NCBI GenBank assembly: GCA_000708835.1
Contig: DF237660.1
Span: 1 to 41,502, forward strand
From: Klebsormidium nitens
Lineage: Eukaryota; Plantae; Klebsormidiophyceae
Reading direction: 5' to 3'
Length of the DNA stretch: 41,502 nucleotides
Part shown: positions 9,701-32,006 of the stretch, piece by piece
Numbering within the stretch: position 1 is the stretch's first letter
How the letters are laid out: each line of letters opens with the position of its first letter
The notes under the pieces: generated by a model
Database searches by the model: none
What the model saw: only the letters and a program-made list of their open reading frames with translations
Told to the model about the DNA's origin: nothing
Program-made: the position numbers and the translations under genes

Positions 9701-12700
9701 GATGCTAGCTTCTTTCTTCGAAGTGTTGAGTATGAGCACTGTTTTTGGGCCAGATTAGTATCCTGTTGTGGCTCTCTCTCTTTCAAACTGATTGCAACCT
9801 GCGGACCATCAGGTGTCGGCAATTCGTAACATTTGACGGACTAGCTGGCTGCGGTGCACGAAGTGATCGCCGCTAGTCGTCGCTGTTGCATTAGGTCGTC
9901 CTTCTGATCAGAGCCGTTCTATTCTTTGTCCAGATAAGCCGTGGCAACAAGCGGTCGGCGGCGATTGCGGCCAGTGAGTCCGATTCTGAGCAATCAGGAT
10001 CTGAAGAAGGCGAGGACATTGAGGGGGCCGAATTTGAGAGTGTGGACGAGTCTTCAGACGGGGAGACATCTCAGGACCGCCGTATGATCGACGACGGAAG
10101 CCAAGACGAGGAGAATCCGGTGATCGCGCAAGGCAAAATGCGCGCCGCCGGGAACTTCGATCATGAGCCGGACATCGCCCAGCTTCTGGCTGGGCGCTTC
10201 AAGCCGCAAGCGCCTCGACAGGCGACCAAGGCGCTCCAAACCGGACGCCAAGACCGTCTCCTGCCTTCACGGTCCAAGTCCGCAGCCGACGGGGGCAGCC
10301 CTTCGCGGAGCTCTTGCTCTACCGCGAGCGACGGGCGGTGGGTGGGTGCCCAGGTTGATCAACAGCCGCCGGCCGCCGCAAGTGCTGGGCTCTTGCCGCT
10401 GCGCTCCGGGAGCTTGCAGTCGGAGGAGCTCGAGAAGGACGATTTCGACGTGAGCCTGGTGGTCGGCTGACAAAAGGCTCCTATTTCGGCTGACAGATGA
10501 ACATATCTCGTTGCCTTCGGTCAGGCCGCCTGCTTTTTGCATGAATATGATTCGAATGATGAGGAAGCCTTTTAGATATTGCTTCAGGGGTTCGCAACCT
10601 GTGTTCACGTTGCTGGAAGTGAGGGGGTTTGAGGCCTTTCGTCTGAAGGTGCACGAAATTTGTCGGGTCCGGGCAGGCGTCTGCTTCCGGGACGAACCTT
10701 TTGAAGTCGGAAGCTCTGTGCACGTTGCTGGAAGTTAGGCCCCGGTTTTCCGAGGAAGTGGGTTTTCTTTATCGCGAGGGGTTGATCAACCGAGTCAGAG
10801 AGGAATTTACGGATTTTGCCTGTACATATGAACACCCGCTGATAAATGCGTGGCGATTTTGTCTCTGTCATTCTCGACACTCAGGTGGCTTGGACACATC
10901 CTGGTGACGATTCCTGCGGGTCGGGTGAGGAGGAAGCGGTGGAGTCAGGCCGGCTGCGGAGGCTGCGAGTTGTCAGCGACGAATCGGAAGAGGAGCGTCC
11001 TATTCCCAGGCAGGGACGCAAGGTCGTCCTTTCGCGATCCCCTTCCGCCGAAGACCTCCTTGCAGAGCCGGCGTCTACTGCGCCCGCACAAGGAAATCAG
11101 GTACGTTCTTGCAAGAGCTGAAAGCCTCTTCCGTTGTGAACTTAAAAAGAGCAATATTCAGCCGGAGATGCGCGCAAAATCTGGCCTTTTTCAAGGCGTT
11201 TTCTGGTGACGGTTTCACTTTATCGGGTCGTTGGCATCCACTGTTGGATCTGATGAACGTGCTATTGTTGTAAGGTAAGGTTGGCAGTCCGCTTTGCCTT
11301 CTTATGGTGGTTTCCCCTGTTGGTGTCCACTTTTGAGTCTGATTGGAGTTGCTGAAGGCCTCCAGCCACCTACAAGGTGTGGACCGTAAGCCGGTCCGGC
11401 CATAGCGCACATTTTAGGGCGGACGGTAAGCACAGGGCCCCTCTTCCTTCTCATTACTGGTCAACACGTTGCCTTTGGTTTTAAGGAATTGTATGCCAGG
11501 TCAACTGCAAAGTGTGGACCGTAAGCCGGCCCGGCCGTACCACAGATTACGAAGCCGAAGGCAAGCACAGGCCACGGGTCCACACGCTGTCTTTGGTTTT
11601 AAGGAATTGTATGCCAGGCCAACTGCAAAGTGTGGACCGTAAGCCGGCCCGGCCATACCACAGATTATGAAGCCGAAGGCAAGCACAGGCCACGGGTCCA
11701 CACGTTGTCTTTGGTTTGAAGGAATTGTATGTCAGGCCAGCTGCAAGGTGTGGACCGTAAGCCGGCCGGGCCATGTCGCGGATTTTAGGGCGGACGGTAA
11801 GCACGGGGCCCCCTCCGCTTTCTCATACTGGTCCATACGTTGTCTTTGGTTTTAAAGAATCCTGTCTTCAGCCAACTGCAAGGTGTGGACCGTAAGCCGG
11901 CCCAGCCATACCACAGATTTGGAGCCGAAGGTAAGCACAGGCTCCCACCTTCCTCGGGTCCACACGTTGTCTTTGGAATTAAGAAATCATGCCTCTGGCC
12001 ATCTGCAAGGTGTGGACCGTAAGCCGGCCCGGCCACGCCACCGATTTCGAAGCCAAAGGCGGGCACGGCCCGGTCCACACGTTGTCTTTGGAATTAAGGA
12101 ATCATGTCTCTGGCCATCTGCAAGGTGTGGACCAAAGCCAAGTATCTCTCCATCGCGAAATGCAATCATAGACTCCACTTTCACGTCAGCTCATGATGTG
12201 CGTGTCCATGTGTGCAGGAATCTGAGGGGACAGAAGGCGATGGTGAAGATGTGCGCCAGCAGCCCCGATGGATGTCTGCTGCGGATCTACACGTAAGTCG
12301 AACAATGTGCGCTCCAATGACTGCTCTTTCCAGCCCCTCATGACAGTCAACCAGTGTAAAGTCTTTGAAGAAAGGGGCAACGTTGTTGCTTTGCAAAGTC
12401 TCGGATCCTCCGACCTGCTCTTTGAAACAGCCTGGAAGGCCACTGTGTCTTGATCAAGGGCGTCGAGCTGAAAGAGACCAAGTTTGAGTCGCTCGCGCGC
12501 ACCATCGTCCAGAGTTGCTTCATCCCGTCTCTAATCCCCTTGTCTTTTGCAGGACGATGGCCCTTCCTCCGACCGTGTGCATCCGGCTAGGGAGCCGCAT
12601 TCTGCTGCTGCGGAGCTGGCACCTTTGGTGAGTCCACTCGCCTTCGTGTACGGGGAATGGGCATCTTGACAGTAATCTGGTCGCTGTTGACCCGGATCGA

Positions 12701-15700
12701 ACCTTTGTCGCTCCGACCGCCGAGCCCCTTCCACTCGACAGTCCCGCTCAGTTCCACGCCCCACACGGCGAAGAAGTGCGAGATGAGGTACTCCAACCAG
12801 CTCACGTAGTTATAAAACTTCTCTCCCTCGTCCCAAACAAGAGCTTGCTTGTCGGGTGAAAGCGTCCACTGGCAGTAGAAGGAGGGGAACTTCTTTGCGA
12901 TGTCGTATCCCTCCCCGGAATAGATGCGCTTGCGCACATGTCTGTCGATCTTTACCGGGCGCTTCTCGACAATTGCGTAAGGGAGCTCCAGGTCCTCCTC
13001 GTGGCGGTGGTCGTACACGGCTTCCAGAATAGCGGTCTCCTCAGCAGTCAAGGGTCGAGAAAGGGCGAAGTGACCGGTGAAATGCGTGTCGTAGCCCATG
13101 ATTGCAATGCCCTTTGAGTGCAAAAGCGTTTCCCCTAAGTATGGCAAAAGCGCGTGCTGAGCCGCTTTCCAAATCTTTCGCCCCCAGGTTCGATCTCGGG
13201 AAGAGGGGGCAGGGGGGTCCCCATCGGTGGCGCGCCGACCAGTTAAGAAGAAGCCACGGTAAGCCCGTTGCGCACTTGATTTGATCGTCCTGGGCTCAAC
13301 TGTTGATTCTGTCGTTGGAAAAGCCGTGCATCGAGTGAGCAGCCTGGAGAGGTGCCTCTTCAGGTGGTGTAGGCCGTGCTGTCAGCCCTGCTCAAAGTAG
13401 CAGGCTCGTGTCTGAAGGGGGTTTTTGCCACTAACCAGACTCGCTAACCAAGCACTAACCATAGCATGCAAGTCTGATTAGCAGCTCCTAACCAGACCCG
13501 GAACACCGCAGCTTCTTTCTACTAACTCGACATTCCCTTCATGCACAGGAAACGCACCAAGCCGAGTCCTGCCCCAATGGACGAGGCGACCCGAACCGCT
13601 GGACAAGCGGCTCTTCAAGCTCATTTCCGCAACCTCAGGGAATCGAGGCTCCATGGAACCTGGCAGGAGGGGCAAGTTGTACAGCTAACTGATCCGGGTG
13701 ATCCTGGAGACTCGCTTCATGCTCCCGACGCCGTAAGTCGTCCGCAAATCTGTGGCCTTTGGAGCCAGCTAGACCGCGCAAACCGCTGGCAATCATAATT
13801 GGCTTGTGCGCACAGCCTTGCAAGACTCTTGACAAGCAGGGTGCAGTGCCCCGAATTTGAGATTGAGACTTTGTAAAGCACGTTTTTGTCGGAATGGTTA
13901 CTGTACATGATCTGTAGCCTCTGCTGGCACTGCCTCCTCCAATCTTATGCAGGCCTGCCCCCACTCCAACCAGCGTTTCAGTCCCGTTTATTAGTGCTCG
14001 CTTCAAAACTCACCCGTCTGCTATATTTTTGCCCTCAGGTCCTTGATGAGGAAGCGAGACCATCGACATCACTGGCGCCAAGGACTGGTCGACCAGCTCA
14101 AAAGAAGCGAAGGTGAGTTCTGTGGCCGACTTGGTGCGTCATTCTTGGCTCACCTGGTGCATCATGCAACCGAAAGCGGTGCAAGCAGTAAAGGAAGGGC
14201 AAAAGAAAGATGTACTCCTTTGTTTATCGCAGGTTCTTTTTGCCAGTGCCGAAAGAGCGTCCGACTTGTAATTCTGTCATCAACTCAACTTCCTTTATCC
14301 CACAGCAAACGGGCAAAGCCAAGTCCTGCCCCATTGGACGAGGCGGCTCGGGCGGCTAATCGAGTGGCGGTTGAAGCTCATTTTGGGGCACTGGAGAGAT
14401 CGAGGCCCCATCGAATCCGGCACGAGGGGCAAGCTGTACATCGAGCGGAGTCGTCCGATCTGGGAGGGCCGCACCATGCCGTGGTAAGTGACCTGCAGCC
14501 CTAGTACCCTTTGCACCTCTTGCGGGCGCCTATGTCACTGCTGGGCGCCGTGGGCCATCATGTCTGCACCTCAAGTCACGCAAGACACCGTGCAGACTGC
14601 TCAAGTCAAGACTTGCTGGGTTTGATTTCGAACTCTGCGGTTGTCATTTGCTCTCAATCCTGAGGTTGGCGTACCATCATGAAAGCAAGTAAGGAATAGG
14701 CCAACTTCCTTTGTGAACAGCCAACAGTGCAGGGTCTTGAGGAGTTCGATTCGCCACCTGTGTACCACTTCAGACACCAGAAAGCCCATGATCCGTCCAA
14801 TTTCGCTCACAAGCATTTTGACCTCTCTTTGCAGGCAGCAGCGCGACCGATGCTGGAGGCGCTGGGGGCGGAGGAGCAGATCGCCCAAGAGGCAGCTGCA
14901 GTCGAGGCCCATGTGGACGCGGCCCAGAACGACATAGAGGGCCAGCAGGAGCGCGAGTGAGCCACTGCTGCTTTGTGTTGCTTTGCGTCTGTGTGTGTCG
15001 ACCAGCTGCCTGCACGAATGATTCTCAAACTTCGTCTTGGCCAGGTTGTATTGGGATGCGATTCTCTGGCCGTTTTGATGGAGGCATGCGCGGTGGACCG
15101 TTCCCAAGGGCTTTCTGGAAATGTTTGAGAGGAGAAGTGGGATTGAATACGATAGGAGAAACGGAACGAGCGTTGGGAATGGAGCGCATTCGAAGCACTG
15201 AGAATGCCTGGTTTTTGCAGGCACTCCGAGATGGCGATGCAGCAGCACGTTCTGCAAAGCCCACAGGAGCAAGAGACGCTCGGAGACGCTGAGGTGAGCC
15301 TGACGTCAACATTTGCTGACGGCGGGCACGAACCTCCCCCCTCTCCTTTGTGTTCTTTCAACTGGTCCACACGTTGTCGTTGGTACTAAGGAATGCTGTC
15401 TTCAGCCAATTGCAAGGTGTGGACCGTAAGCCGGCCCGGCCATACCGGGTTGGCAAGACAAACGGTGGGCATGCGCCCCCACTTAATGGGTCCACACCTT
15501 GTACTTGGTTATAAGGGAACGAGGCTTCAGCCATTTGCAAGGTGTGGACCATGTCGAGGCAAGCAGTTTGTAGGCTCGAGTGTGAGATTTTTCGCTGAAT
15601 TGCATGCTCCTGTGTTTTCTGCAGGAGCCCGAGGCGCCCCAGCAGATCTGGGGGGTTCCTGCCGAGGATGTCGGCAACGCGACAAGCTCGCCCGCCAGTG

Positions 15701-18700
15701 CAGAACTCTGTCAGCCCAGCACAGCCCCCGACCTCGACGAGCCTGCCCAATCTGGGAATTGGGTTTCGACGGAAGATGTAAGTCTCAATTGCTCCAGAGA
15801 AACGCTCAATGATAACTGATCAAATCACGTCGTGTATGCTTGGTCCGTAGTAATCGTCAAAGCTGAGCGGTTGTTGATCCTCTTCTTCGCTGAAGTAACA
15901 AACATTGAGGCCTTCAGGGTCTGTATCCAACTGATATCTGATGTAGGGAGCCACCGAGCTCCTGTCCCAGTCCTTAAAGCCGCCATCCTCTGTGAACTCC
16001 TTCAGCAGGTCCGGCCGTTGCAATTTACTTGTGTTGCCGCACTTGCCCATTCGACGAAGGTCGTCGATTGCCTCCAAGGCAGCTTCTAGGAACAGCCTTG
16101 CCCTGTCGCAAGCCTCCTTGTCATTGCGATCGAGCTCAAAGAGATCCTGTAGTTGCTCGTTCGAGATTGGTGCTCCTTTTCCGGCGGCGAAAGACATGAG
16201 ATTTTGCCTTTCTGCAGCACAACGCTTCCCTAAGTAAAAATCTTCATCACAAGTCGTCTGTGGCCGCGCCCCCTTGTTCGGACCCCATCATTGACCTGGT
16301 CCTTCTTTTGTGCAGGATGTCCCTGTGGTGGCGCCCGCCTCTCGAGTGCGCCCTGGCGAGACTCTGGTCCACAGCGAGCACGACGGAAAACTGTTGACCG
16401 TCAAGAAGGCGGCGCTGGGCACCTTTTTCTTCGCCAAGCGCAAGTTCGACGATAAGGTTGACTACCGGGATGCGAAGAACGGGCCGCAGGGTTTCTGCCG
16501 ACGTTATGGAGAAGTGCTCCGCCATCAGGTCGAAATCCGTCGCCTGCGCCCCTCTCGGGAGTTTGGGTCCTACCCAGACTGGCCCTCGGCGTTCCCCAAA
16601 CTGCGCAGCGAGCCTCACTTGGAGGAGGCCATCAAAGCGGGGTGTCCCTGCAAGCCGTACCTGGATCTGGAGAGAGACGGGGGGCTGCCGGACGGGGAGA
16701 CCCTCGAGACGGTCATTGCGGCCTTTGAGGAGGCAATCACGATCGTCTTCAACTTGGACTACGGCCTCAAGCTCCCAGCGGAAGCCTTCAACTGGATCCC
16801 CTGCGACTACGGGCCGGGCGGCAAGTTTAGCCTGCACCTGGTCGTCTCCTCCCATTCCCCCCAGTTTGTCTTCCGGTCCAACCTGGCAGCCCCGGCGGAC
16901 CCTCAGGGAGCGGGCCATCTCGCGAGAAAGCTCGGCCAGCGCTTGCCCGACCGCTATGCCGAGCTCATCGACCAGTCGGTGTACACGAGGAACCGGGGAA
17001 TCAGACTCCCCTACTGCTCCAAACCCTCCACTCCTCAAAGCCGCCTCATCCCCCTGGACGAGAGCAAGCCGTACGCGGACGCCTGCATCACCTGGTTCGA
17101 TGACCACGTCCAGACGATCAAGGTCCCCAGCAGCGAGATCCCCGACGTCGTGCGAGCGGGGCGTCCCCGCAGCAGGCCCGAGCATTTCCGGTACCAAAGC
17201 CCCAAGGTCGCAAGCATGTATGAGATCCAGAGGTGCACCGAGCTCATCCAGACGCTGCACCCGACGGCTTACCGCAGGGGGTCGGCAAACTCGCTGAACT
17301 TCAGCTGGCACGATCGGAGCGAGCCGTGCTACTCGGGGCACGTGCATGCTGGGGGGAGGGACATCCTCTGCATCGCGGCCCCGGAGAAGAACGCAGTCTT
17401 TGCCAAGTGCTGCAGCGAGCGAATCGATCCAACGACGGGCGTGTGCTGCAAGGACCTGCCGTCCAAGTACCTCGGGCCGTACTGGGTGGATTGCGATACG
17501 TGGAAGGACGGTGCTGTGGAGATCGACATGAAGTACCTGCAGCGGAACCCGCTGGCTGCCGCGCCCATGGACCTGGAGCAGATCCGTGGCGGCTTCCGCC
17601 CCCTGACCAACGGGGTCGTTTTAACGACATCATGAACAAGTAAGATCGTTCACTGCGCAAGGGACCTTGGTGCGCGCGCGCTTCAGGCGTAAACGTGTGA
17701 GTCTGGTCGCTGTTGCTTGGTAAGTGCTGCGTCGCTGGTCGCTGGACTCTTAGGCTCAGTTTGTCTGGGATTCTGCTTGGTACTATTGGCAGCCGGTTAG
17801 CGCTGGTCTTGGGCAGATGTTGTGCGTTGGGGAATAGAGGATCGTGCAGAGAACTTGAGGCAAACAGCAGGCTGATCAGCCCTGCTGTTGGAAGGTGTTT
17901 AGACGCTTTTAGGTCTGGTTGACCCCAGGATTTTGATCGCTGTCAAGGAATCGGGACCAGATCTGAGTTGGGAGGCCGAATACATGCCTTTTTCAGAGGG
18001 TTTTGGCAGCGTACAACGCTGCAAACCTGGTTGTGATCAGCGCTGTAAGTCTGCTTGTAGTTGTGTGCTGTTTTGCGTCCGTTCAAAGGGTGCTTGTTAG
18101 CGTTTGAGCAAGGGTTTTGCAGCAAGAACCAGACTGCTGTCGCGCCCCGTGGCGCATGCGTGTCGCTCACATTTTGGCAGCCTAGATAGCGCTTCAGATC
18201 AGATCAGCTGACACCTGATTTGAGGACACCCCGGCGTCAGATTCGGAGCGATTTGGGATTGTGAAGCAGCTTGCAGACAGCCGTCAGGTGTCGAGACTTG
18301 AGGCGCATCTCAAATTGCATCAAGAGCGCGCGTTTGTGGCTGTGGTGGTCAGACAGACAGGGAGGATAGGCAGCTCGACTGTAGTGCATACTGAGGTGTT
18401 GGTGCTTCAGTCTTGCAGCCGTCTTTAGTTTTCGGAAAGCCAGCGCTGTTTAGCGAAAGGGTCTTCATAAGGTTCCTTTGAAATTCTGAACGTTCTTACA
18501 ACCTTTTCGTGCAGGTGGCAGGAGGGTCAGTACAAAGCCGTGATGCTGAGGAGTCCCATGGGGAGCGGAAAGAGCACGCTTCTTCAAGCCCTCTTGGCTG
18601 AAGAACCTGAGCCCGAGACGGTCAACATGGCCTCTTACCGTCGCACGCAAGCTCTGGACGCTCAGGGCAAGCACAAGGACTTTTCTCACTACGAAGTCCT

Positions 18701-20672
18701 CAAGCAGGCAGATGGGCGCGAGGTCGGCGGGCGCTTCATCAGGCCTCTCGCCCACAGGGAGCTCCACCCCCGCGTCATTTGCCAGGTCGACAGCCTGCCC
18801 GGCCTGCTGGCTGAGGATGACGAGGACGCCCCCGCGTTCGACCTGCTCGTCCTGGACGAGAGCGAGTCAATCTTGGCACATCTGTCTGCCAACACGCTTC
18901 GCGAGAGGCACACCGTCATTCGGCTCCTGGTGAGAATGATGAGCAGAGCGCAGCGGATCATCTGCATGGACGGGCACTTGGGGCAGCGGACGTTCGAGTT
19001 CCTCACCATGCACGGGATTTCGTGCTCCCCCGTGGTGGTCAACACCCATCCCCCGGAGCGGCCCCTCCAGGTTGAGTTCGTTCACGGCAAGAACAAAGGG
19101 CTCCCAAAGTGGGAGGGGGCGATCTTTGAGGCGCTGGAGGCCGGCCGCAACGTCTTTGTGGTGAGCATGTCCTCCGACAAAGCACGAGAGTTGGGGGCGA
19201 TGGTCGCGGATCGGGCCGTCGTAGAGAACGACCAGATCTTGATCATCACCCGACACTCAGACGGTGCGGTCAAGCGGGGGCTGCAAGACGTGAACGTGCA
19301 GTGGCGAAAGCGGCTCGTAATCATTAGCCCCACGGTTGAAGCAGGCGTGGACTTCAATCAGCGTTGGTTTCATCAGATGTTCCTGTACATCTGCCCGAAA
19401 AGCACGCACCCGAGGGGCTTGGATCAGATGAAGGGGCGTGTGCGGAAGCTGGAAGACCAACGGGTCCTGTGTTACGTCCAAGAGGGCATCAGGCTGCCCG
19501 CTGAAGGGTCGCTGGGGGACAGCTTCTTGACGAAGATGAAGACCGATTCGGGCAGCATTGCGAGGCTGGGGCTCGAAGAGACCTATCAGTGGTTTTTGAA
19601 CCAGGATCAGAGGGGCGGGCTAGGGGTGAACTGTGCGGGTCCGATAACCCGCCTTCTCGCTCACAATGAGAAAGAGCTCTCTAACGGACAGACGCATTTC
19701 TACGAAGAGTTTACAGACCTGTTGCGGAGCGACGGCCACATTGTCTTGGGCGTGCCTGTCGAGGAGTCGGATGACGGTGAGGCGGTCGAAGTGAATCCAG
19801 GCGGCTCGGAAGAAGGAGGGCGCAGGGGCAAGTATCTTCTTGAGGCGATGATCCGCGCCCCTAATATCTCGCAAGCCCAGTTTGCCGACATCGAAGCACG
19901 GGTCCGCAAGAACCAAGACCATGAGGGGGAGATAATTTCGATGGAGAAGTACCAGCTGGCGCGGTTTTACGACGTGCCACACCTGAACGAGGACTTCCTG
20001 CGAACGGTCGGTCCGTACCCAATCCACGCGGTTGATTTTCTCGAGCAGGTGGTTGACGAAGGGTACAAACATGAGGAAGCGGAGATTGGACGGCACAGGT
20101 ACCCCCCTCTGATGGCAGATATGGCCAGGGAGCTCTTAAGGGTATTGGGATTCGGGCACCCGCTCGACTTGGCTCACAAAACGGCCCCTCTTGAGGCGCT
20201 GAGGCCGCAACTTGCTGGAACTGCCTTCTTCCAGAATTACTCGGAGAACGCCAGGTTATTCCATACTCGGGCAACAGGCGCAGCTGACGCATTGGCCTAC
20301 CAGAAGTCGGCCACGATCGGTCTTAACCACGTCTTCTCGGCGTTGGGACTGCGCTTGAAGGCAAGGAACCTGGGCAAGCTGGAGGTGAACGATGGGAAGA
20401 GCTCAACAGGCAAGCAGCGAAGACGGAAGATTCGATACGGAGGCTGGTATTTATCGCGAAACCCTCGGAGCACGACCCGTCCTGTATGTGGTCCTCCCGG
20501 GGTAGACGTGATGGCTCAGTTGTTGAAGCTTCGTCTGGAGCATTCGGATGCGTTGAAGGCGAGGATTCCGGCAACTTTGAGGGATTACGTGGACGGACTT
20601 CGCTTAGCATGGCCGGAACTCGTCCAGGACAGGAGGTGCGAGATCGAAGTAGGACCAAGAGAGGTGGAATAG
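6731..20672 (+). CDS. Multi-exon gene (~20 exons, ~2,120 aa): low-complexity/Zn-finger-like N-terminus + AEP primase-polymerase + Zn domain + UL9-like SF2 helicase; true start probably further upstream
   Basis: Phase-compatible GT-AG exon chain traced by hand: 6731-7256, 7651-7794, 7943-8023, 8191-8259, 8427-8482, 8772-8855, 9161-9325, 9509-9610, 9934-10449, 10885-11100, 12218-12292, 13188-13258, 13549-13732, 14039-14112, 14306-14483, 14835-14956, 15221-15293, 15625-15777, 16316-17639, 18515-20672. One 1-nt frame break lies in the TTTT run at 17619-17622. Confidence is higher for the last two exons than for the upstream chain. Confidence 0.7.
11322..12133 (+). repeat. Tandem array of 7 palindromic ~62-bp units with related spacers, inside an intron (11101-12217)
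   Basis: Unit ggtccacacgttgtctttggttttaaggaat(N~13)gccaactgcaaggtgtggacc, followed by gtaagccggcccggcc. Unit ends at 11385, 11520, 11638, 11756, 11891, 12018 and 12133 (periods 135, 118, 118, 135, 127, 115). Confidence 0.93.
12587..13099 (-). CDS. Intronless phage-type conserved hypothetical protein, nested antisense in intron 12293-13187
   Basis: MGYDTHFTGHFALSRPL...FPSFYCQWTLSPDKQALVWDEGEKFYNYVSWLEYLISHFFAVWGVELSGTVEWKG...DKGSIRV. This fits a pattern I recognise from bacteriophage hypothetical proteins (MGY-x-T-x-F-x-G...CQW...WDxGEKFY-x-Y-x2-WL-x-YLI...L-x-G-x-V-x-W-x-G). Confidence 0.75.
   Translation of the reverse strand: MGYDTHFTGHFALSRPLTAEETAILEAVYDHRHEEDLELPYAIVEKRPVKIDRHVRKRIYSGEGYDIAKKFPSFYCQWTLSPDKQALVWDEGEKFYNYVSWLEYLISHFFAVWGVELSGTVEWKGLGGRSDKGSIRVNSDQITVKMPIPRTRRRVDSPKVPAPQQQNAAP
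13188..14483 (+). repeat. Tandem duplication of a two-exon module within the large gene
   Basis: Exon pair 13188-13258 + 13549-13732 (RPVKKKPR|KRTKPSPAPMDEATRTAGQAALQAHF...EGQVV) parallels 14039-14112 + 14306-14483 (RPAQKKRR|SKRAKPSPAPLDEAARAANRVAVEAHF...EGQAV), with identical intron phases. The DNA block aagccRagtcctgccccaWtggacgaggcg is shared. Confidence 0.85.
15364..15550 (+). repeat. Two further units of the palindromic repeat, in intron 15294-15624
   Basis: ggtccacacgttgtcgttggtactaaggaatgctgtcttcagccaattgcaaggtgtggacc and ggtccacaccttgtacttgg...ttgcaaggtgtggacc. Confidence 0.9.
15820..16197 (-). CDS. Intronless hypothetical protein (125 aa), nested antisense in intron 15778-16315
   Basis: ATG-initiated ORF with globular-protein-like composition (MSFAAGKGAPISNEQLQDLFELD...) that fills most of the intron; no family recognised. 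Confidence 0.55.
   Translation of the reverse strand: MSFAAGKGAPISNEQLQDLFELDRNDKEACDRARLFLEAALEAIDDLRRMGKCGNTSKLQRPDLLKEFTEDGGFKDWDRSSVAPYIRYQLDTDPEGLNVCYFSEEEDQQPLSFDDYYGPSIHDVI
16316..17639 (+). CDS. Exon encoding an archaeo-eukaryotic primase (PrimPol / NCLDV-herpes primase-like) domain plus Cys/His-rich Zn-binding domain
   Basis: AEP motif I PYLDLE, motif II KFSLHLV and motif III IDQSVYTRNRGIRLPYCSK, followed by EPCYSGHVH...FAKCCSER...C. Acceptor cttcttttgtgcag at 16315; donor aa|gtaaga at 17640. Confidence 0.88.
18515..20672 (+). CDS. Exon encoding a superfamily-2 helicase of the herpesvirus UL9 / origin-binding-protein type
   Basis: LRSPMGSGKS (Walker A), ASYRRTQA (Ia), CQVDSL, LLVLDESES (Walker B), IICMDGHL (III), IISPTVEAGVDFN (V), QMKGRVRKL (VI). 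Order and spacing resemble UL9-family proteins. Splices in phase from NDIMNK to WQEGQYKAVML. Confidence 0.85.
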
Positions 20673-22221: not shown

Positions 22222-22285
22222 CGGAATATACAAAAAAGCCCACTTGTCTATTTCTGTACACCGCTGGTCACATTATCTAGAGCTA

Positions 22286-22411: not shown

Positions 22412-22497
22412 TTTTGAACCTCGATATTCACGTTATCTGCGGAGGGGGCCTTCAGCGTGGTCAAGATTTTCTCGCCAGTATCCAGATAACCTGAAAG

Positions 22498-23553
22498 ATG
22501 CAAGGGCCTGCCAAGAGCACACGACACATAACCACGGTTTCTGAAGGCGGAAGGCTATTACGCCAGGTCTTTGAGGATGGCGATCGAAATGAGAACACGA
22601 TCGGTCAATATTGCAAGCACGTCATGCGCTTGTTCCAGGGTTTGCACGGGCAAAGGGATTTTAGCAATTTGAAATGGCTCAAGGACGCTGACGGAATCAT
22701 CAAGTACTTTCAAGAAGCCTACCCCTCAAAGCTGTCGATGCAGGCCACTGGGATTAACCCGCTTCTTGTGATAGCGCGCAAAGCATTTCCCGATGACAAA
22801 CAGCTCTATGATGCTTACTATAAGCGGTACACAGAGGTTCGAAAGCTCATGGATCAAAGCAAGCCGCCTCTCCAGCAACTAACAGAGCGCGAAGCAGCAA
22901 ATTGGAAAACTTTGGATCAAATTAACGAGCGCAGAGTGGAGCTACAGAGGCACGTCAATCGCAAGATTCTGAACAAGAAGCCCGAAGATTTGTCCGACGA
23001 GGACAAAATTGTGCTTTTTTGCCACCTCGTATTGTGCCTTTATAGCTATCAACCGGCAATTCGCAATGGATGGGGGGATTGCCCCATCGTGCGCTTAAAA
23101 GACATTAAAACAGTTGAGACTCGCGAGATCATGTCTGGATCCGGAAATTATCTGTTGGAATTCGAAAAAGACGAATTTCGTCTGGTATTGAATGATTTCA
23201 AGACCGTCCGTCACCATGGACCGACTTCCGTAGACATGTCGACCCGCTGCAACAACGTCATCTCGGAATCGCTGGAAGTCTTTCCGAGGAGGTACCTATT
23301 ATCTCGAATCAGGTCGCCCGACAAGCCAATGAGCCGAAATTATCTCTCAAAATTTTGCAGCACAGGTCTTTTCAAGGACGCAAGCGTGGGTTCGTGTCTT
23401 CTTCGCAAGATTTGTGTGAGCAATCTCTTCAAAGACGCCCCGAGCATAGCCGAGCGTGACGACCTTGCGCGGAGCATGTTGCATACGGCCGCTATGGCAC
23501 AGCGAACCTACGAGAAAAAATTCGACCAACACGGCTCTCGGATCCGGTTTTGA
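22498..23553 (+). CDS. Tyrosine recombinase/integrase of the virophage / Polinton-like-virus / NCLDV type
   Basis: N-terminal core-binding-like helices (NTIGQY...LKWLKD). Catalytic set: LYSYQPAIRN (R), LNDFKT (K), SCLLRKICVS (R), ARSMLH (H), AQRTYEK (Y). Intronless, 351 aa. Confidence 0.85.
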   Translation: MQGPAKSTRHITTVSEGGRLLRQVFEDGDRNENTIGQYCKHVMRLFQGLHGQRDFSNLKWLKDADGIIKYFQEAYPSKLSMQATGINPLLVIARKAFPDDKQLYDAYYKRYTEVRKLMDQSKPPLQQLTEREAANWKTLDQINERRVELQRHVNRKILNKKPEDLSDEDKIVLFCHLVLCLYSYQPAIRNGWGDCPIVRLKDIKTVETREIMSGSGNYLLEFEKDEFRLVLNDFKTVRHHGPTSVDMSTRCNNVISESLEVFPRRYLLSRIRSPDKPMSRNYLSKFCSTGLFKDASVGSCLLRKICVSNLFKDAPSIAERDDLARSMLHTAAMAQRTYEKKFDQHGSRIRF

Positions 23554-23589
23554 ACGATTCACAATGTGCTCGCCACGTGGCAAATTCTT

Positions 23590-23943
23590 TCAGGACACTT
23601 GAATGCTTGTGAATGCACCCAAATGGAGCGAGGGCACTTCGGTCTCATCTGACGTGTCTGAAGACGCCATTTGATGATCAGCATGCTGCCATGCACGATG
23701 CGGACCGTTATCTACTGGAAAGCCTGCATCAAAGAGGCGCTGTAGAGTCCTCTGTTGACATGCATGCCCATTTTTGTAGCGCTCAAAGGCTTGGGCCAAA
23801 AGGATTGCATCCCTATGTCTGTAATAATACCTTTTCGTGTAAGTCTTTCGAGCATCCGGATGCTTTTCATAGAATTGCTTGATAGTTTTGCACACTTTGC
23901 AAGTGCAGCAATCGTTCAAAGCGCTTTCGTTATGCGACTCCAT
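23590..23943 (-). CDS. Small basic hypothetical protein
   Basis: ATG at 23943 (MESHNESALNDCCTCKVCKTIKQFYEKHPDARKTYTKRYYYRHRDAILL...). Cys cluster plus K/R/Y-rich helix; divergent from the primase gene. Confidence 0.45.
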   Translation of the reverse strand: MESHNESALNDCCTCKVCKTIKQFYEKHPDARKTYTKRYYYRHRDAILLAQAFERYKNGHACQQRTLQRLFDAGFPVDNGPHRAWQHADHQMASSDTSDETEVPSLHLGAFTSIQVS

Positions 23944-24033
23944 GCTCAGTACTGATATTATGGTAAGAAAATGTGCTTGACCCGACACCAAACGCACGTG
24001 CGTTTAAACAGACTGGTTTTAAATCTTGTCAAA

Positions 24034-26830
24034 ATGTACGAAGAAATGGCGGACGCCCAAGCTAGCTTCTCAGGACCTCCAACCGCTCAAGACCCTAGGC
24101 CCGTAGGGCCCCGAGCAGTTGCAGACGAGATCCAACGGCTCTCCAACGTTGGGCTCTATGCAATTCCCGTGCGCATGTTCTGGAATGAAACAGAGGGTAA
24201 GAAAGATGCCAAATTTCCACACAAGTACGCAAACATCACAACGCCCGAATTGTGGAAACATTCTATCGATAAAGCAAAGCAGGAAAGGAAGGACGCCAAT
24301 GGAGTCGCAATCCTCACACGTCCCAGTCGGATCTTTGTGGTTGACGTTGACGTTTCGAGCAACGATAACAAAAAGCCGGGAATTCAGCTCTGGAACCAAC
24401 TCGTCAAGGAACATGGTGAGCCTAAAACACTAAAGGCACAATCAGAATCCGGTGGGTATCATTTCTATTTCAAAGCAGCTACACCCGGCCTAAAATGCAG
24501 CCGTAATTTTGAGAGCATTAAGGTGGGTGAAACTACCTATGGTATTGACGGTCGGGCTGGTGGAGGGGTCGTCTTTGCTTTTCCCGCAAGCTACGTCAAT
24601 GATCAGGGCAAGCTTGCCACATACGAATGGCTTGGAGGGCCTGCTAGCTTTGAAGCGTGTCAAGACATGCCTCAATGGCTCGTAAAGTTTTTGAATGATC
24701 ACGTTCAACAAACTGCATTGGACCAGACTAAAAAGCACAAGTCATGCGAGAATGACTCGAATGCTACCCCATCCGTTGTTAAGAACTCAACATCGATGGC
24801 GTCAGCACCTCTTGGAAACGTGCAAGAGGCCGTGCCTGGATTGGAACGAGCGCGTGAAAAGATTGAGGAGTTGTTGCGTGCCAAAGCGCCGGACGACTCT
24901 AGTATCTTCAACGGAGTCGGGAGAAGAACCGCGAGTGGCTGGCAGATTCTGAAGTACAAATTCAACGGCACGCGAACTTGCTTAAACGGCAACCAACATG
25001 ACTCAAATAAGTTCAGCATCCTAAGCAATGGGTGCGTCCTTGTGTACCGCTGTCTGAGTCCAGGATGCATCGATCGACCAAAGCAACTACTCGGCGTCTA
25101 CTTTTGGCCTGAGTGTTTGCCTCTGAGAGTGGACGGGGAACTTTTCAGGACCTGCGAAAGCTACATTCTCCTCTTCAAGTCGTCAACAGATGAAGGGGAA
25201 GAGAAAAACTTGAAGAAGAAGAAAGAAGATGACGAACAAACAAGAAGAGCAAAAATGGACTTGCACGATCTCGTCTTGCGTACCATGAACCATTACTTTG
25301 CCGTCGTGCGTTCGACAAAGGCGATTTACCTGGAGACAATCTACTCGAGAGACGCAAACGGGAAGCTTGAGCCTGAGGAGACCATCCATCGGTCCGGCCG
25401 CGACTTCCTCGAGGTCCGCAAGAATTTTCAGCTTGAAAGCCTGTCTGGAAAGAGCAAGGAGGTTGCCAAATTTTGGGAGAGCAGTTTCAAGCGCCGAGAA
25501 TACGATCAGATTATATTCGAGCCGGACCCATCAAAGGTTTCCTCACGACATTTCAATCTGTTCAGTGGGCTTAGTTTCAAACCACTCGACCACAGATTGA
25601 CGGACTTGGAGCTCGTGGAGTGCGAGGAACATATGCCAAGGCTCATGTGGCACTTCCGCAACATCATGTGCGATGGCTCCAAGGAGCGGTTCGACTACAA
25701 TATCCGTTGGATGGCGCACGCCGTTCAGAAGCCTTGGAGGAAGATTGGGGTGGCTCTCGTGTTCCGCAGTGGGCAAGGATGCGGAAAGTCTGTATTGTGG
25801 GACTTTTTTGGACGGATGATCCTTGGCGGCAAGTATTACCTTTATTGTAACGAAATCGAAAAGATCATTGGCAAATTTAACTCACTAGCAGCCAACAGGT
25901 TGTTGGTTGTGTTGGACGAATGTGGCAGTTGGGGCGGAGCGTATCGAATGAACGATCGGATAAAGTCCCTGATCACTCAAGAAACAACATGTATGGAGCG
26001 CAAAGGCCAAGACCCTATCAGCGTGGACGACAAAAGCAATATCGTGTTCACTACAAATAATTTCTGGCCTGTGAAACGAGAAGCAGACGATCGCCGATAC
26101 TCTTGCCAGCAAGTCTCGGATGCCAAGATGGGGAACAAACCATACTTTGATGCCCTCGTGGGAGAGTTGGAGAGCCCCGAAACCGCTTATTCACCTCTAT
26201 CCGGTATCTGTCATCCATCGATATCTCCGACTGGAATCCCCAAAAGATGCCGGTCACAGCTTGGGGGAGGGCCTCAAAGAGCACTCGATTCCACCTCACG
26301 TCAACATGATGCAAGCACTGCTCGAGAACGGATGCTTCCATCCTTCTTTAGAGACATGGGTAGCATCAGCAGACATTAAGCGGACATATGACGTGTTTTT
26401 GCATCAGATGGACATCAAAGAAGACCGCCATACCGACATCAACGTCTTGATGCGCTCTCTGGTTGCCGTTTTTAAGATGCGACCGCAGGCACGTTCCATT
26501 GATAAGGTGCGGACCCACAAGGGATGGTGGTTTGCCCCACAGGGCGCTATTTGCGAGGCTCTGCATAAAGGCAAGCTTCTGAGCTCCACTGTTGAGTGGG
26601 TGGATACATGGCAACGGCTTGACTACGACAAAGATAAGGAGGGGCCATGGATGACAGAGCCAACAGCTCTTCAAGAGCTAGTCAATGCCTCAAAAGGTTC
26701 GCGACAATCCGTTGCAGATCAAAATTGTTCGTTCTGCTTGAACCGTCATGTGTGGGAGGTAAGACGAAGTAAAGACGGAGAAGTATCGACACGAGAGAGG
26801 CCAAACAATGATTCTTCTCAAAGTGGATAG
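24034..26830 (+). CDS. Intronless Prim-Pol (bifunctional primase/polymerase) + Zn domain + D5-like SF3 helicase, with local frameshifts at 26186-26270
   Basis: Prim-Pol motifs NGVAILT, IFVVDVDV, SESGGYHFYF, IDGRAGGGVVFAFPAS. CLNGNQH...YRCLSPGC. SF3 motifs FRSGQGCGKS (A), LVVLDE (B), KSLIT...ERKG (B'), VFTTNN (C), DDRRY (Arg finger). Three 1-nt indels restore PETAIHLYRYLSSIDISDWNPQKMPVTAWGEGLKEHSIPP, which continues in ORF 26120-26830. Confidence 0.88.
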
Positions 26831-27059: not shown

Positions 27060-30000
27060 TCAACAGCGCCCCCTCTTAATGGAGTCTCTCAAAGGATTAC
27101 TAGCCTTGCTCCAATACAATGCGTACTTTGAGCGCTCGAACAGCGTGTCGAGGATCGTCGTGAACCTGCTCAAGAGCCGCTTGATGCTCGTGATCTGCTG
27201 GAGGCTGGCCGCGCATCTCTTGAGGCCCGAGTTGATGCCCTCCGAGGCCGTCGTGATCGTGTGGCTGTGTTGTGGAAACAAGTCGATGAAGAGCGTCGGG
27301 GCACACGTGTGCGTCGCATAACGCTTTGCGCCAGACGGCGCGCAGCTCACGGGGCCCGAGTGGAACCGGTCGACAAGAAATAGCATGAACTTGGCCAGCT
27401 GTGGCACCCGGTTCAGCATCCACTCCTGGGCATTGCAAGCGGCATCCTCCACGATCGTGAGCCCACGCAACGTCCTAAAAGGGAACCGTGTGAGCAGCAC
27501 GGTCCCCAGGTCCGAGACGCTCTCACCGCCCTTCAGCCAATGGTATCCCAGGGGCGCTTGGTCCTGGCAGCACGCAATGAACATCCCGGCGCGCCCCTTT
27601 GATGACCGAGGGTTCGGGGCGCTGCAGTGCTGGGTGAGCCGCTCCTCCGAACCCCTCTTTCCCCGACCCGCTTCGTCTTCCCAATCGACGAACCGAGGCC
27701 GGCCGTACAACAAAGGGTGGAACGCGTAGGCCGAGACGGCGCCGACCCGCTCCGCGTAAGTTGCTGACGGCGCTCGAAGGAAGCCGCCGTCTTTGTAGCA
27801 CTGGGGCTCTCGAACTTCGAGCTCGAACAGAAGCGAGTTGGCAGCCCCCTTCAATGCCGCCCCGCGCTGCTCGGCATACTCCATTGCGGCCCCCTCCATC
27901 TGACCCGCAAGCCTCAGCTTCTCGCCTTCGATCGCCCAGAGGTGCTCGGTCGCATCATGGAGGGCGGCCAGAGGCGACCGCGACAAGGGCCCTGGCCGGT
28001 TTGCGCTGGGCTCGAAGCAGAGGAGGTTCGTGGCATAAATGTCGCGCACGAGCGGCCGCAGCGCCGCCGGAAAGGCGTACTGTCCGCCGGCGCTGGGATG
28101 CAGGCGCAGGACGGCCGCTAGCATGGGACCGTCGTTGGAGAGAAAGGCCATCCCTTGCGCATCGAGAGGCCCCTCCAGCAACACGTGTCTCAGCAGCTTC
28201 AGGGTGACGATGCGCCCAAACACCCAGGAGTACCTCGGAATGAGCAGCGCGTGCAGGAGGGCTCCATACGGCTGGAAGTGCGTGGGGCACCAACCGGTCG
28301 GCCCCACCGGCCCCTCCTTGAGAAACCCTTGCATCCAGGGCCGCCTCGGGACCCCCTGGCAGACGGCACACGTGGCCGGGTCAATACAAGCCCCCGCCTC
28401 CGTCACGAAGTCGATCAGGGCAACGACGTTTGCCGGAAGCCCTTCTCGTATCATGACGAACTCCTCCGGTTTTAAAGGCGCATTGCTCCCTTGCGCCGGA
28501 GCCTTTCGAAAGTTGCACCAGCGAAGCGCCAGGGCCCGTATTGCCGGCCGTAGCTCTGAGAGCCCGTTTCGGAACTTCCAAGGGCAGTCGATCCCTTCGA
28601 GCGGCACGTCGGATGGCCGCACTCCGCCTACGCTCAGAGGACTGAAGCCCCCAGCAACCCTCGTTGCCCTTGGATCCGGCTCGCAGATGCTGTGCAGCGA
28701 TGCCTCCGTCTCAGAGTCTCGCATCGCGCTTGAGTTGGCAAAAAATGTGCCGTCGAACGTGATGACCTTGTCCCGCCCAAAAGCGTAGGTCGACAGCTCG
28801 GAGCTCGGCCCCTCCGTTCGCTCCGGCCTCAGGGGGGTGCCGGCCTTTTGGGCCTCAGCCCCGGCCGCCTCTACCTCGCATGTGTACAGATGCGCGCAAT
28901 CGGCGCGCGAGCAGACGTGCTGGATCCGAGGCCGGGCGGCCAAGTCGTTGAAGGCCTGCATAGCCGAGTCGAACACCCGGTCGTCCAGTCTAGGGACGTT
29001 GGGGCCCTCGAGGCTCCTTGTCGCCATGTCACCGGCCTCAAAGTTGAGGCTGTGGGCTGCCCCAGAGCTGCGGCAAAGTAATTTCGCAAGAGCAATCCGT
29101 GCGAGATGAGGTTGGTGCCGGAGAAGTTGAAGATGCCGTCTTCCTGCAAAAAGGAACAACATCACCGTAAATATGCGTTTAGGAGAGCCTTCATTTTTTC
29201 CAAGGCTTGAATACAGCAGACCATGTCTTTGAACGAAAAGTTTGCGTCCGCTTTGAGTATTGTCGGCCAGAAGGGCTTGCTCAATCTTCCAGATCTGGCT
29301 GCTTCAGCCTGTACCTGCAAAGATACTCAAGCTGCTATTGGAACAATGATGCACGACTTTCCTTTCTCGAGCAACAATTCACCCGGCCCGCTTTACGTCG
29401 AGTCGGTCTTGCCTCAAGAATGTTGCGCAATATGCAGCAGTGCGTGGACTGATTTGCGATGGCCCATGCATCCCCATAAAGGACTGGCGACCTGTTTGAG
29501 GTGTCTGGATCTTGGGCTGCATAGCGCACTTGATTGCCTGACCACAACCGAGGCGCGAAAGAAGTACAAGATCAAAGACCTTGCTTTGCTTCAGTGGACC
29601 TCTCATCCTCTGAAAACGCTTCAAACCCGTTACTATCGAGAAGTCGACGTACGTGTGCTCGCTATCCGGGAGCGAGGGGGTCCGGTGGGCTTTCGTGAGG
29701 CTCAAGAAGCTCGACAAACAAAGATCATAATGCAACGGAGGAAAAGGCTCGTCAAGCATTATGAGGATCTTGCAAACCAAGGAAGGTGCTTCCAGACGCA
29801 AACCGTACTAGCTGGTCTCAATCTGCCAGAGTGCATTGACCTTCGAGCAAAGCTCGAGAGCCCCAAGGAAGGATCCGAGCGCATCTTTCGGGAGGAAGCA
29901 ATTCAGCAACTCTCACTTCTTCGTCGTATGGTGCCTTTGGAATCTCCAAAGAAATATTCCCTGTTGTGGACCGAACCAGACTACCCGCTCACTGTTAAAG

Positions 30001-32006
30001 CCAAGTGCAACATTGACTACCTCAAGGCAAATGCTATTCTACCCTCTGAAGCAGCATACAGACGCTACAAGGAATGTGCACTCAATCAATGTATCAATCC
30101 GTATGATGAAGGTGTTAGTTCTCACCAGGCCGTCGTAGGCAGTTGAGCAGCAAGCCGCCTCTTGCCCTGGGGCGATGCGGCAGATCCTCCGATAGGTTGT
30201 GATAGAGTAGCGCGCTCCGGCCGTTGTTAGCGCCCCCTTCCGGCTCTCCACTTGCCATGGTCGGCCGCACGGCGACAGCACCTCGACGGGTCGCGGGGCG
30301 CAAAAGTGCTTTGCTTTATCACGCCGCCGCACCCCCTCTTCGCCCCACCGTTCGCAAAGGCTCGCAACACTCGCTCCACCCCGGCTCATGACCGTGTCGA
30401 TCTTCCGATGGCTGTGGCCCATATCGAGGGCCGCCGCAGGGAGACACTCCCACAGCTCTCGTGAGTCCCGGTGGGTGCACGCAACTTTCGAGTCCGGCCG
30501 CCGGCAAAGCCGATCGTTGCAGACCCAGAGCTTTCCCTGCCCTGACGCTCGAAGCTCCTCCCTTTCCGCCCGTTTCTCCAAAACGGGTGTTGTGCGTGTT
30601 GCAACCTGAAGCACCCGTCCGTCTTCAGGTCGGAAGCTTACTGCCGTGCGTGACTGCTTCGTCCCTGCAAAACCTCTCTCCACGTGCGAGCACCCCTCCT
30701 GATCCGGACATCTGCTGCAAAAGGCATTCCTCCCTGTGAGCACGCAAACTGCTGGGAGTTTGTCGACTCCCGCCCCAGTGCCAACCACAAACAGACGGAG
30801 TCTTGGCCCCGACCATGCGGCCGCGTTGAGCCCACTGATTGGAGCTCCCAGACGGCCGTCCAGCTCGATGGGGAGGACCCGGTCTGGATTGCTCATGACC
30901 TTTCGTACAAAGCTTGAGCTCTCGTCAAACGGGCCAAAGTCTGGTCGCGCCCCCCCTGTGACGGATCCCCACCAGCCCTCCATAGCTGCGGTGTCTCTCA
31001 AAAGGCCCACTTCATGGTCTCTGCATGCTTTCTGGCCGCACATGCAGCGGAAGTTGCCCGCATGATCCACCTTGACGAGCCGAGGCAGATTGACCGGCTT
31101 CCCCCCGGTCTCTGACAAAGAGAACTCGAGAACCCGCCCGTCGCCCCCCAGATGCGGAACGAGAAACAGCCCCGCGCCAATGACGGTCGGAGGGATTGTG
31201 CACCGTTTCAACTCCTCCAATACTGCAGCCGTCCCGCATTCCTTCGGAGTGGGACCGGACTCGAGCGCCCTCTTTATTCCCCGTCTGGCGACCTTTGCCT
31301 TCTTGCAGCACGGGCACGCCTCCAAATCCCGCCTTTGAACAAAAAACTGGCGCCCCCCCTCCGCCGCGGGCTGCCCTAACTTCGGCTCTCTCAACTCTCC
31401 TGAGTCGGGAGAGGCCTCGTACTTCTTGAAGAGGTCACTTCGGTCTATTGCCTCTCCAGTGACCGTTGAGACAAAGGGGCGGCCCTCGGCGTATGCGGCG
31501 TCCAAACATCGGAGACAGAGGAGGTGTCCGCCGCCGCCTGGGCAGATGATCGCACCTCCACGGTTCCGTTTCCGCTCCCAGATGAACGGCTCGGCTCCTC
31601 GGGTGTACAGGGGCACGTTGCCTTTGCAGACACTGCCTTGGCACGGCACCCCAAAGCCGTCCTTGGTGAAGGCGCTCCCGAGCTTGAGGCGAAAGGCGTA
31701 CGCATAATCGAAGAAGAAGTCGTCGTTTCCTTGCTGTGCCGCTTATGAGGGGGTCCCGCCACGGATGCCGCCAGCGTGTGGCAGAGGGGGGACGGCTGCT
31801 GGCACGCTGCGAATGTCGCAGATTCTGATGGAAGTGCCGAGAGGGCTGTTCGGAGACGAGATATCAACGCCGCCGATTGTGACCGCCCCCAGAGCTCGCA
31901 CGTGCCCACCACCCGCCAATGCGCCGTGCAGATAGGCGTTTGGACCCGGAGCGGTCGATGCAAGCAGCTGCACTTCTTCTGTGGAGACCACTAGGCATGA
32001 CGCCAT
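27060..32006 (-). CDS. Two-exon SWIM/CxC Zn-cluster + Kyakuja-Dileera-Zisupton (KDZ) transposase (~1,320 aa); one in-frame TAA and one frameshift
   Basis: Exon 32006-30126 (SWIM-like RCMCGQKACRDH and FCSRCPDQEGCSH; CxC-like CAP..SPCGRPW...RICR...CCSTAYDGL) splices in phase to exon 29143-27060 (EDGIFNFSGTNLISHGLL...). KDZ core: GMFIACCQDQAPLGYHWLKGGES, TIVEDAAC, LNRVP, FLVDRFH, THTC, TTASEGINS. Lesions: TAA at 31743-31745 and a 1-nt break in the C4 run at 29060-29063. Confidence 0.82.
29223..30146 (+). CDS. Intronless F-box-like + XPA-like Zn-finger/DNA-binding protein, nested antisense in the KDZ intron (29144-30125)
   Basis: N-terminal LLNLPDLAASACTCK (F-box-like), then CAIC...TCLRC followed by LTTTEARKKYKIKDLALL...HP...TRYYREVDVRVLAIRERGG, the XPA C-terminal pattern (iT-x-TEAk-x2-Y-l...Y-x4-V-x3-A-x3-wG). 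Confidence 0.7.
   Translation: MSLNEKFASALSIVGQKGLLNLPDLAASACTCKDTQAAIGTMMHDFPFSSNNSPGPLYVESVLPQECCAICSSAWTDLRWPMHPHKGLATCLRCLDLGLHSALDCLTTTEARKKYKIKDLALLQWTSHPLKTLQTRYYREVDVRVLAIRERGGPVGFREAQEARQTKIIMQRRKRLVKHYEDLANQGRCFQTQTVLAGLNLPECIDLRAKLESPKEGSERIFREEAIQQLSLLRRMVPLESPKKYSLLWTEPDYPLTVKAKCNIDYLKANAILPSEAAYRRYKECALNQCINPYDEGVSSHQAVVGS

What the first reader, a model, noticed from the sequence alone, without database searches (positions are those of the whole stretch)
12293..30146. Introns made of antisense genes: intronless ORFs nested in the introns of both large genes
Seen: 12587-13099 (-) in intron 12293-13187; 15820-16197 (-) in intron 15778-16315; 29223-30146 (+) filling intron 29144-30125 of the minus-strand KDZ gene and overlapping its donor exon by 21 nt. 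A further broken minus-strand frame lies at ~12300-12530 (GARERLKLGLFQLDALDQDTVAFQ...). All three nested genes are antisense and intronless. Inference: the long mRNAs arose by splicing across a gene-dense virus-like genome, removing opposite-strand genes as introns, or cargo genes are tolerated only antisense within introns. Either would be an unusual packing strategy.
Basis: partly seen in the sequence, partly recalled or inferred. Interest (0 to 1): 0.75.

Follow-up and report, generated by a model that had tools for sequence, protein, structure and literature searches.

The report
Virus-like genes hidden in algal introns
In a green alga, a repeated virus-like stretch of DNA has one shown and two likely small genes lying backwards inside introns of its two long genes (splicing is shown for one long gene and inferred for the other), which likely shows virus-like genes being turned into introns as a neighbouring gene grows over them.

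Summary
Partly confirmed. The window is Klebsormidium nitens DNA carrying a spliced primase-UL9-like helicase gene (+) and a KDZ-like transposase gene (-), both multi-copy. RNA contigs from four studies confirm intron 15778-16315 exactly. ORF A is a real phage-family gene with conserved paralogues. ORF B is coding-like and shares an upstream TACTTAG motif with A. ORF C is too long for chance but has no confirmed homologue. The broken frame is probably a decayed copy of B. The KDZ intron rests only on homology (13 paralogue gene models); RNA was not tested there. Each intron is little more than ORF plus 79-118 nt. The + gene's 5' exons are lineage-specific, so splicing over neighbouring genes is plausible there. 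The KDZ intron splits an old CxC4-like domain, so that cargo arrived by insertion. 'Only antisense, only in introns' is not supported: n=3, and most cargo lies outside introns. No independent expression of nested genes was seen. New variant of nested genes in a giant cargo-bearing element.

The parts
8500..20672 (+). Spliced primase (AEP-like) plus UL9-like helicase gene; 5' end lies further upstream (homology from about 6821). Low-complexity short exons precede the primase exon.
   Evidence: GT..AG joints in RNA contigs; 1155 codons open across 15 junctions from 8500 to the stop at 17633-35; PF02399 E=2e-21; 6 K. nitens paralogues. The AEP label is recalled from motifs, no library hit.
12293..12552 (+). 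Intron (260 nt) holding the broken antisense frame
   Evidence: Joint 12292/12553 in 6 of 8 runs laid
12300..12530 (-). Broken frame D, likely a decayed duplicate of ORF B
   Evidence: About 60% identity over about 110 nt in register with ORF B, single-pair p=0.004; preceding exons alike, p=0.048; protein alignment not significant, p=0.45
12553..12627 (+).
   Evidence: aligns with paralogue P0036
12628..13187 (+). Intron (560 nt) holding ORF A
   Evidence: Joint in 6 of 8 runs laid
12587..13099 (-). ORF A, 170 aa, intronless, phage-family protein (phrog_38666) of unknown function
   Evidence: 31 homologues, 13 at 58-73% identity; phrog_38666 E=9e-23; 12 of 19 listed paralogue differences at third codon positions, p=0.007; fold match to a Tupanvirus protein E=1e-6
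13135..13141 (-). TACTTAG motif 42 nt before the ATG of ORF A (candidate cargo promoter)
15778..16315 (+). Intron (538 nt) holding ORF B, directly before the primase exon
   Evidence: Joint 15777/16316 in 6 of 8 runs laid
15820..16197 (-). ORF B, 125 aa, intronless, likely a gene; no protein homologue found
   Evidence: Codon-model z=3.5, p=0.001 against stop-free nulls; shared upstream motif; related DNA in other contigs; no hit in Pfam, NCBIfam, phage genomes or Atlas
16230..16236 (-). TACTTAG motif 39 nt before the ATG of ORF B
16316..17639 (+). Primase exon; the frame ends at a stop at 17633-35, so the helicase exon is out of frame in this copy
   Evidence: RNA contigs agree with the DNA here, no gaps
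18515..20672 (+). UL9-like SF2 helicase exon
   Evidence: PF02399; CyRepA1-family domain E=2.5e-41, below cut-off; RNA cover
21052..21502 (+). Non-nested cargo ORF (133 aa, HIRAN-like by recall) with the same TACTTAG motif 49 nt before its ATG
   Evidence: no contig cover at 21028-22400 in 4 of 4 runs
21667..26379 (.). Further non-nested intronless cargo: 184-aa ORF (+), 351-aa tyrosine-recombinase-like ORF (+, label recalled), 117-aa ORF (-), Prim-Pol/D5-like primase-helicase (+)
   Evidence: PF09250 E=4e-15 and PF19263 E=1e-19
27060..29143 (-). KDZ-like transposase, downstream exon; one-base frame break near 29062 relative to paralogues
   Evidence: Mostly 73-90% identity to K. nitens and JGI relatives; frames
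29144..30125 (-). Inferred intron (982 nt) holding ORF C; splits the CxC4-like domain
   Evidence: GT..AG; 13 of 37 relatives read across the junction; PF18717 matches spanning it, below cut-off; no RNA test
29223..30146 (+). ORF C, 307 aa, intronless, likely a gene; last 21 nt overlap the KDZ donor exon
   Evidence: Length p=0.0005; codon model p=0.04; Atlas best hit 0.92 to an unnamed cluster, recognition 2278, just under the tool's 2300 mark; no homologue confirmed by alignment
30126..32006 (-). KDZ-like transposase, upstream exons (cysteine-rich)
11365..12150 (+). Tandem array of about 120-nt units with an inverted 12-nt core, inside intron 11101-12217; related units at 5735-6585 and 15354-15567
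32244..33153 (-). Same array in inverted orientation beyond the KDZ gene; host RETICULATA-like gene follows at about 35 kb

Best explanation
Small intronless virus-like cargo genes (A shown, B and C likely) lie antisense inside introns of two long multi-copy genes of an algal element, and they likely got there by two routes. First, the once-compact primase-helicase gene likely gained new 5' exons from the spacers between its divergent neighbours, so the spliceosome now removes each neighbour with its promoter as one intron (A, B, and the decayed copy D). Second, a cassette (C) likely inserted into, or created, the intron that splits the transposase's CxC4-like domain. Shown: splicing over A and B, the tight fit of intron to ORF, and the coding history of A. 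Inferred: the order of events, the promoter role of TACTTAG, splicing of this KDZ copy, and that antisense copies persist because sense copies would disturb the long transcript. In this copy the cargo appears nearly silent and both long genes carry a frame break, so it is likely a non-autonomous copy.
For: Joints in 6 of 8 runs, 4 studies, in frame over 15 junctions. Both relatives from other collections start just before the primase match, while K. nitens 5' extensions run 130-780 aa and only P0036 of 6 matches the exons around ORF A. In all three cases the ATG is 79-118 nt inside the acceptor and the stop lies 42 nt before, or 21-41 nt beyond, the donor, although the cargo-free introns are mostly 183-351 nt: little spare intron is left. 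ORF A's tail Asp-Ser-Pro is the antisense reading of the donor; 5 of 13 close relatives end in or near the same tripeptide after tails of different length, which suggests the same donor there (DNA not seen). TACTTAG occurs 4 times in the window, 3 times 39-49 nt before the ATG of a cargo ORF, one of them not nested. The KDZ junction lies inside PF18717 matches. ORF A relatives share contig lengths with KDZ relatives for 4 of 7 JGI contig lengths, and locus tags put one pair on one scaffold.
Against: No paralogous DNA could be fetched, so order of events and constancy of cargo are inferred from proteins. B and C have no alignment-confirmed homologue. The KDZ intron has no RNA test, and the public gene model of this copy uses the same donor but other acceptors. 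None of 6 K. nitens primase-helicase models shares a scaffold with the 22 other KDZ models, so the two long genes may be a local composite rather than one element. The TACTTAG motif was chosen after seeing A and B, and C carries only a loose variant. No termini or target-site duplication were found.
Confidence: 0.5

Rival explanations
1. Ordinary nested-gene formation: all cargo inserted into introns that already existed, and the introns later shrank around whatever was still under selection.
For: This is the usual route described for nested genes (PMC5174743, abstract start). It fits the KDZ intron, whose position is fixed in 13 models. One paralogue model has a different 120-aa sense segment at this junction (P0066). 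An ORF A paralogue sits in a different setting, next to a DnaJ gene.
Against: A and C run through the donor into the exon; little spare intron remains; A's donor-derived tail is shared by divergent relatives.
Confidence: 0.28
2. Selected packing or switch: the element keeps cargo antisense in introns so that transcription of the long gene silences it, and cargo fires only when the long gene is off.
For: Unspliced contigs over A have depth 4-7 against 266-600 for the spliced form; shared upstream motif; transcriptional interference is documented for nested genes (PMC5174743 passages).
Against: Non-nested cargo at 21.0-22.4 kb also shows no cover, so silence does not need nesting; D has decayed; both long genes are frame-broken here; n is small; contigs cannot rank expression.
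Confidence: 0.1
3. Only ORF A is a gene; B and C are chance or shadow frames, so the pattern rests on one case.
For: No homologue of B or C in Pfam, NCBIfam, phage genomes or PDB; only a weak PHROG hit for B, E=0.02; Atlas blank for B; C folds poorly alone, pLDDT 38.
Against: C fills 92% of a 982-nt intron, p=0.0005. B scores like the element's known genes, z=3.5, while 0 of 11 control introns do. B shares A's motif. No general protein-database search was run for B or C.
Confidence: 0.12

Closest known systems
Nested genes of eukaryotes (Drosophila, mammals)
   Same: Small internal gene inside an intron of a large gene, mostly on the opposite strand (71-73% in two Drosophila species; PMC5174743, passages read).
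   Different: Here the internal genes are virus-like cargo of a repeated element, fill 70-92% of short introns, overlap the donor exon, and seem partly to have been overgrown rather than inserted.
Giant KDZ (Kyakuja-Dileera-Zisupton) DNA transposons with accessory genes (Ectocarpus up to 30.3 kb, Chlamydomonas 31.7 kb, fungal TET/JBP carriers)
   Same: Large CxC-bearing transposase in many copies, extra genes, nested insertions, often a broken transposase (PMC12477816 passages; PMC9977147 passage; PMC12730594 first part and passages).
   Different: Cargo here includes virus-type replication genes and a phage-family gene, partly inside introns; no Pfam KDZ core hit; ends and target-site duplication not found.
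Endogenous viral elements of Klebsormidium and protists (NCLDV inserts, Polinton-like viruses)
   Same: Primase-helicase and recombinase-like genes in a 15-30 kb island (PMC10120064 passages); K. flaccidum/nitens is known to hold several viral inserts (PMC5294986 passages).
   Different: No capsid, packaging ATPase or DNA polymerase hit among the window ORFs scanned; the two main genes are spliced, whereas such elements were treated as intronless.

Membership tests
Nested gene pair | External gene is spliced across the internal gene | tested here: met
   A and B: joints in 6 of 8 runs. C: homology only.
Nested gene pair | Internal ORF is a real gene | tested here: inconclusive
   Met for A; likely for B and C; no homologues found for them.
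Nested gene pair | Internal gene lies wholly within the intron | tested here: not met
   Met for B only; A overlaps an exon by 41 nt and C by 21 nt.
Nested gene pair | Internal gene has its own transcript | not testable with these tools
   Only unstranded contigs; cover over A (depth 4-7, 3 runs of one study) is no higher than over other retained introns.
KDZ transposon | CxC cysteine cluster associated with KDZ transposases | tested here: inconclusive
   PF18717 CxC4 at E 8e-4 to 0.04 in 11 of 14 relatives scanned, all below the curated cut-off.
KDZ transposon | RNase H-like DDE core | tested here: inconclusive
   No Pfam KDZ-core hit. Acidic motifs CC.D, ED..C, D.FH and E..NS are near-invariant in 19-22 of 37 relatives; their likeness to KDZ is recalled, not tested.
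KDZ transposon | Defined termini and 7-8 bp target-site duplication | tested here: inconclusive
   Inverted tandem arrays flank the region but no terminus or duplication was located; feature taken from PMC12730594.
KDZ transposon | Dispersed multi-copy family | tested here: met
   23 K. nitens gene models on different scaffolds, this copy included.
Polinton-like virus or NCLDV insert | Capsid, packaging ATPase or DNA polymerase genes | tested here: not met
   No such hit among the window ORFs scanned against Pfam, PHROGs and NCBIfam; not every ORF was scanned and divergent capsids could be missed.

The most novel reading that the evidence does not exclude
A giant KDZ-like transposon of streptophyte algae has absorbed a virus-type replicon and converts whole virus-like genes, promoter included, into spliceosomal introns. 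The gene-bearing introns then decay into ordinary-sized ones (ORF B intron 538 nt, its decayed twin 260 nt), which would be a visible route of intron gain from antisense genes.
Probability: 0.25. Interest if true: 0.8.

Novelty: new variant of a known kind. Interest (0 to 1): 0.55.

Why it matters
If the 'grown over' route holds, it shows how an intronless virus-like gene cluster becomes a eukaryote-style spliced locus: neighbours become introns and spacers become exons. With more than 20 copies of the transposase in one cultured alga, intron origin and decay could be ordered directly. It also means annotation misses such cargo: none of the 9 cargo ORFs looked up is on record as an exact protein. 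The family of elements was not found in the papers searched.

Tried and rejected
No whole genome is held. Searches for paralogous DNA failed: viral contigs gave only distant phage relatives of A (16 and 2 loci) and nothing for the primase or KDZ exon; metagenome contigs gave 4 distant loci; prokaryote genomes gave none. No RNA evidence was obtained for 20900-33600 beyond 22400, so the KDZ intron is open. No run was on record as RNA; the spliced GT..AG joints show that the contigs derive from RNA. X21 laid nothing, which proves no absence. The broad profile search for B or C never ran. Folding C alone failed; fold searches of A in the PDB found nothing. Phage-genome tblastn of A, B and C was blank. 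Remnant genes in the other 11 introns tested were not supported. A likeness between intron A and intron 17640-18514 (p=0.005, gappy, post hoc among 91 pairs) was set aside as chance. Programmed frameshifting at the primase-helicase break was considered and dropped: paralogue models read through in frame and no canonical slippery heptamer is there (rule recalled). Earlier findings of the scan: none. The original KDZ paper was not held; no supplements were opened, and those of PMC12477816 and PMC12730594 may describe comparable elements.
Full report
What the window is. A K. nitens gene model (P0069) is listed on a contig of 41,502 bases and maps residue for residue onto the minus strand at 27063-32471. 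Between about 5.7 and 33.2 kb lie a + strand primase-helicase gene (PF02399; the AEP label is recalled), several intronless ORFs including a Prim-Pol/D5-like protein, and a minus-strand cysteine-rich transposase-like gene. A tandem repeat with an inverted core lies at 5.7-6.6, 11.4-12.1 and 15.4-15.6 kb and inverted at 32.2-33.2 kb. A host RETICULATA-like gene follows near 35 kb. Both long genes are multi-copy: 6 K. nitens primase-helicase models of 770 aa or more and 23 KDZ-like models.

Checking the introns. Contigs of four runs from four studies give 15 listed GT..AG joints along the + gene, each in 4 of 4 runs. Two more runs repeat them and add 10449/10885; two further runs show none. The joined exons are open for 1155 codons across 15 junctions. 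Intron 15778-16315 is exact. For the KDZ gene there is no RNA test. Its proposed intron has GT..AG ends, 13 of 37 relatives read YDG[QR]-EDG[IL]FN across it and 7 of 37 start at its acceptor. This copy has a one-base frame break near 29062 relative to its paralogues, and the primase frame stops at 17633-35 before the helicase exon, a break the RNA contigs share.

Are the nested ORFs genes? A: yes. It has 31 homologues, 13 of them at 58-73% identity, matches phrog_38666, has relatives in large phage contigs and a structural match to a Tupanvirus protein. An expressed paralogue differs at third codon positions in 12 of 19 listed sites, p=0.007 (the table was cut, 72 rows unseen). B: likely. A codon model trained on the element's genes gives z=3.5 while 0 of 11 control introns score; a 96%-identical unspliced contig joins B to the primase exon in run X20, with a one-base gap in B at depth 2, and another contig joins B-like DNA to the repeat. 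No protein homologue was found. C: likely. Length p=0.0005, codon model p=0.04, Atlas first hit 0.92 to an unnamed cluster with F-box clusters as lower leads. D: probably a decayed copy of B, though the evidence would not survive correction over all 91 intron pairs; I had named this pair before testing.

Geometry. In all three cases the ATG lies 79-118 nt inside the acceptor and the stop lies at the donor: 41 nt into the exon (A), 42 nt short of it (B), 21 nt into it (C). The ORFs fill 84%, 70% and 92% of their introns; 11 of the 16 + gene introns are 183-351 nt. A's tail Asp-Ser-Pro is the reverse reading of the donor site, and 5 of 13 close relatives carry Asp-Ser-Pro at or near the end, one more Thr-His-Pro, which is the same DNA word in another frame. 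This suggests an old, shared arrangement, but the DNA of those copies was not seen. TACTTAG occurs 4 times in the window, and 3 times 39-49 nt before the ATG of A, B and a non-nested cargo ORF (nominal p=1e-4, motif chosen after seeing A and B).

How it most likely arose. Two relatives from other collections are compact primase-helicase fusions that begin 24-60 residues before the matching part. The K. nitens copies have long low-complexity 5' extensions that differ among copies; only P0036 of 6 matches the exons around A. The simplest reading is that the gene gained upstream exons from spacers between divergent neighbours, so that each neighbour and its promoter became an intron. The KDZ case differs: the junction lies inside CxC4 matches, so the two exons were once one domain and C, or its intron, is an insertion. 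One paralogue model has an unrelated 120-aa sense segment at this junction, a hint that cargo varies there. ORF A travels with the transposase (4 of 7 JGI contig lengths shared; one shared scaffold), but none of 6 primase-helicase models shares a scaffold with the 22 other KDZ models, so one unit is not shown.

Orientation and expression. Three of three antisense is unremarkable: p=0.125 at even odds, and about 71% of Drosophila nested genes are antisense. Most cargo here lies outside introns. An ORF A paralogue is joined in sense to a host DnaJ gene in a gene model. Unspliced contigs over A have depth 4-7 against 266-600 for the spliced form and appear in three runs of one study; other retained introns reach depth 3-120. 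Contigs give no strand, so independent transcription is neither shown nor excluded.

Comparison and verdict. Nested antisense genes and giant KDZ transposons with accessory genes are both known, and so are viral inserts in this alga. I saw passages of PMC5294986, PMC12477816, PMC5751038, PMC10120064, PMC5174743 and PMC9977147, the first seventh and passages of PMC12730594, and only listings of the rest. Eight searches aimed at this element or arrangement found no description of it, in a library that lacks most subscription papers. Membership in KDZ is likely but not shown. The finding is real after correction and is a new variant of known kinds; its most novel reading, genes turning into introns and then decaying, is open and can be tested on the public assembly.

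Noticed in passing
protein P0032 (paralogue of window 12725-13099): A K. nitens gene model joins an ORF A paralogue in sense to a host DnaJ C-terminal domain; RNA contigs of a paralogue (depth 35-83) end at that junction position. Possible capture of a phage-family domain by a host chaperone gene.
   Followed up: partly
window 13135-13141, 16230-16236, 21052-21058: TACTTAG 39-49 nt before the ATG of three cargo ORFs; a candidate promoter of the cargo genes.
   Followed up: partly
window 5735-6585, 11365-12150, 15354-15567, 32244-33153: Arrays of about 120-nt units, each with an inverted 12-nt core about 40 nt apart; inverted at the right end; could be transposase binding sites or the ends of nested element copies.
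   Followed up: partly
window 6821-16316: The + gene looks chimeric: 6.8-10.4 kb matches paralogues P0037-P0039, 12.2-15.8 kb matches P0036, with a repeat array at the seam.
   Followed up: partly
window 17615-17640: A well-covered transcript stops before the helicase exon, so this copy would make a primase-only protein; paralogue models read through.
   Followed up: partly
protein P0066, residues 605-725: An unrelated 120-aa coding-like segment sits in sense at the KDZ junction in one paralogue model; possibly different cargo in the same intron.
   Followed up: no
window 23971-26830: The Prim-Pol/D5-like ORF continues in a second overlapping frame (26075-26830), suggesting another frame break.
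   Followed up: no
run X20, window 15857-16606: One unspliced contig, 96% identical, ends in letters that by recall are a library primer; it joins ORF B to the primase exon in a related copy or strain.
   Followed up: no
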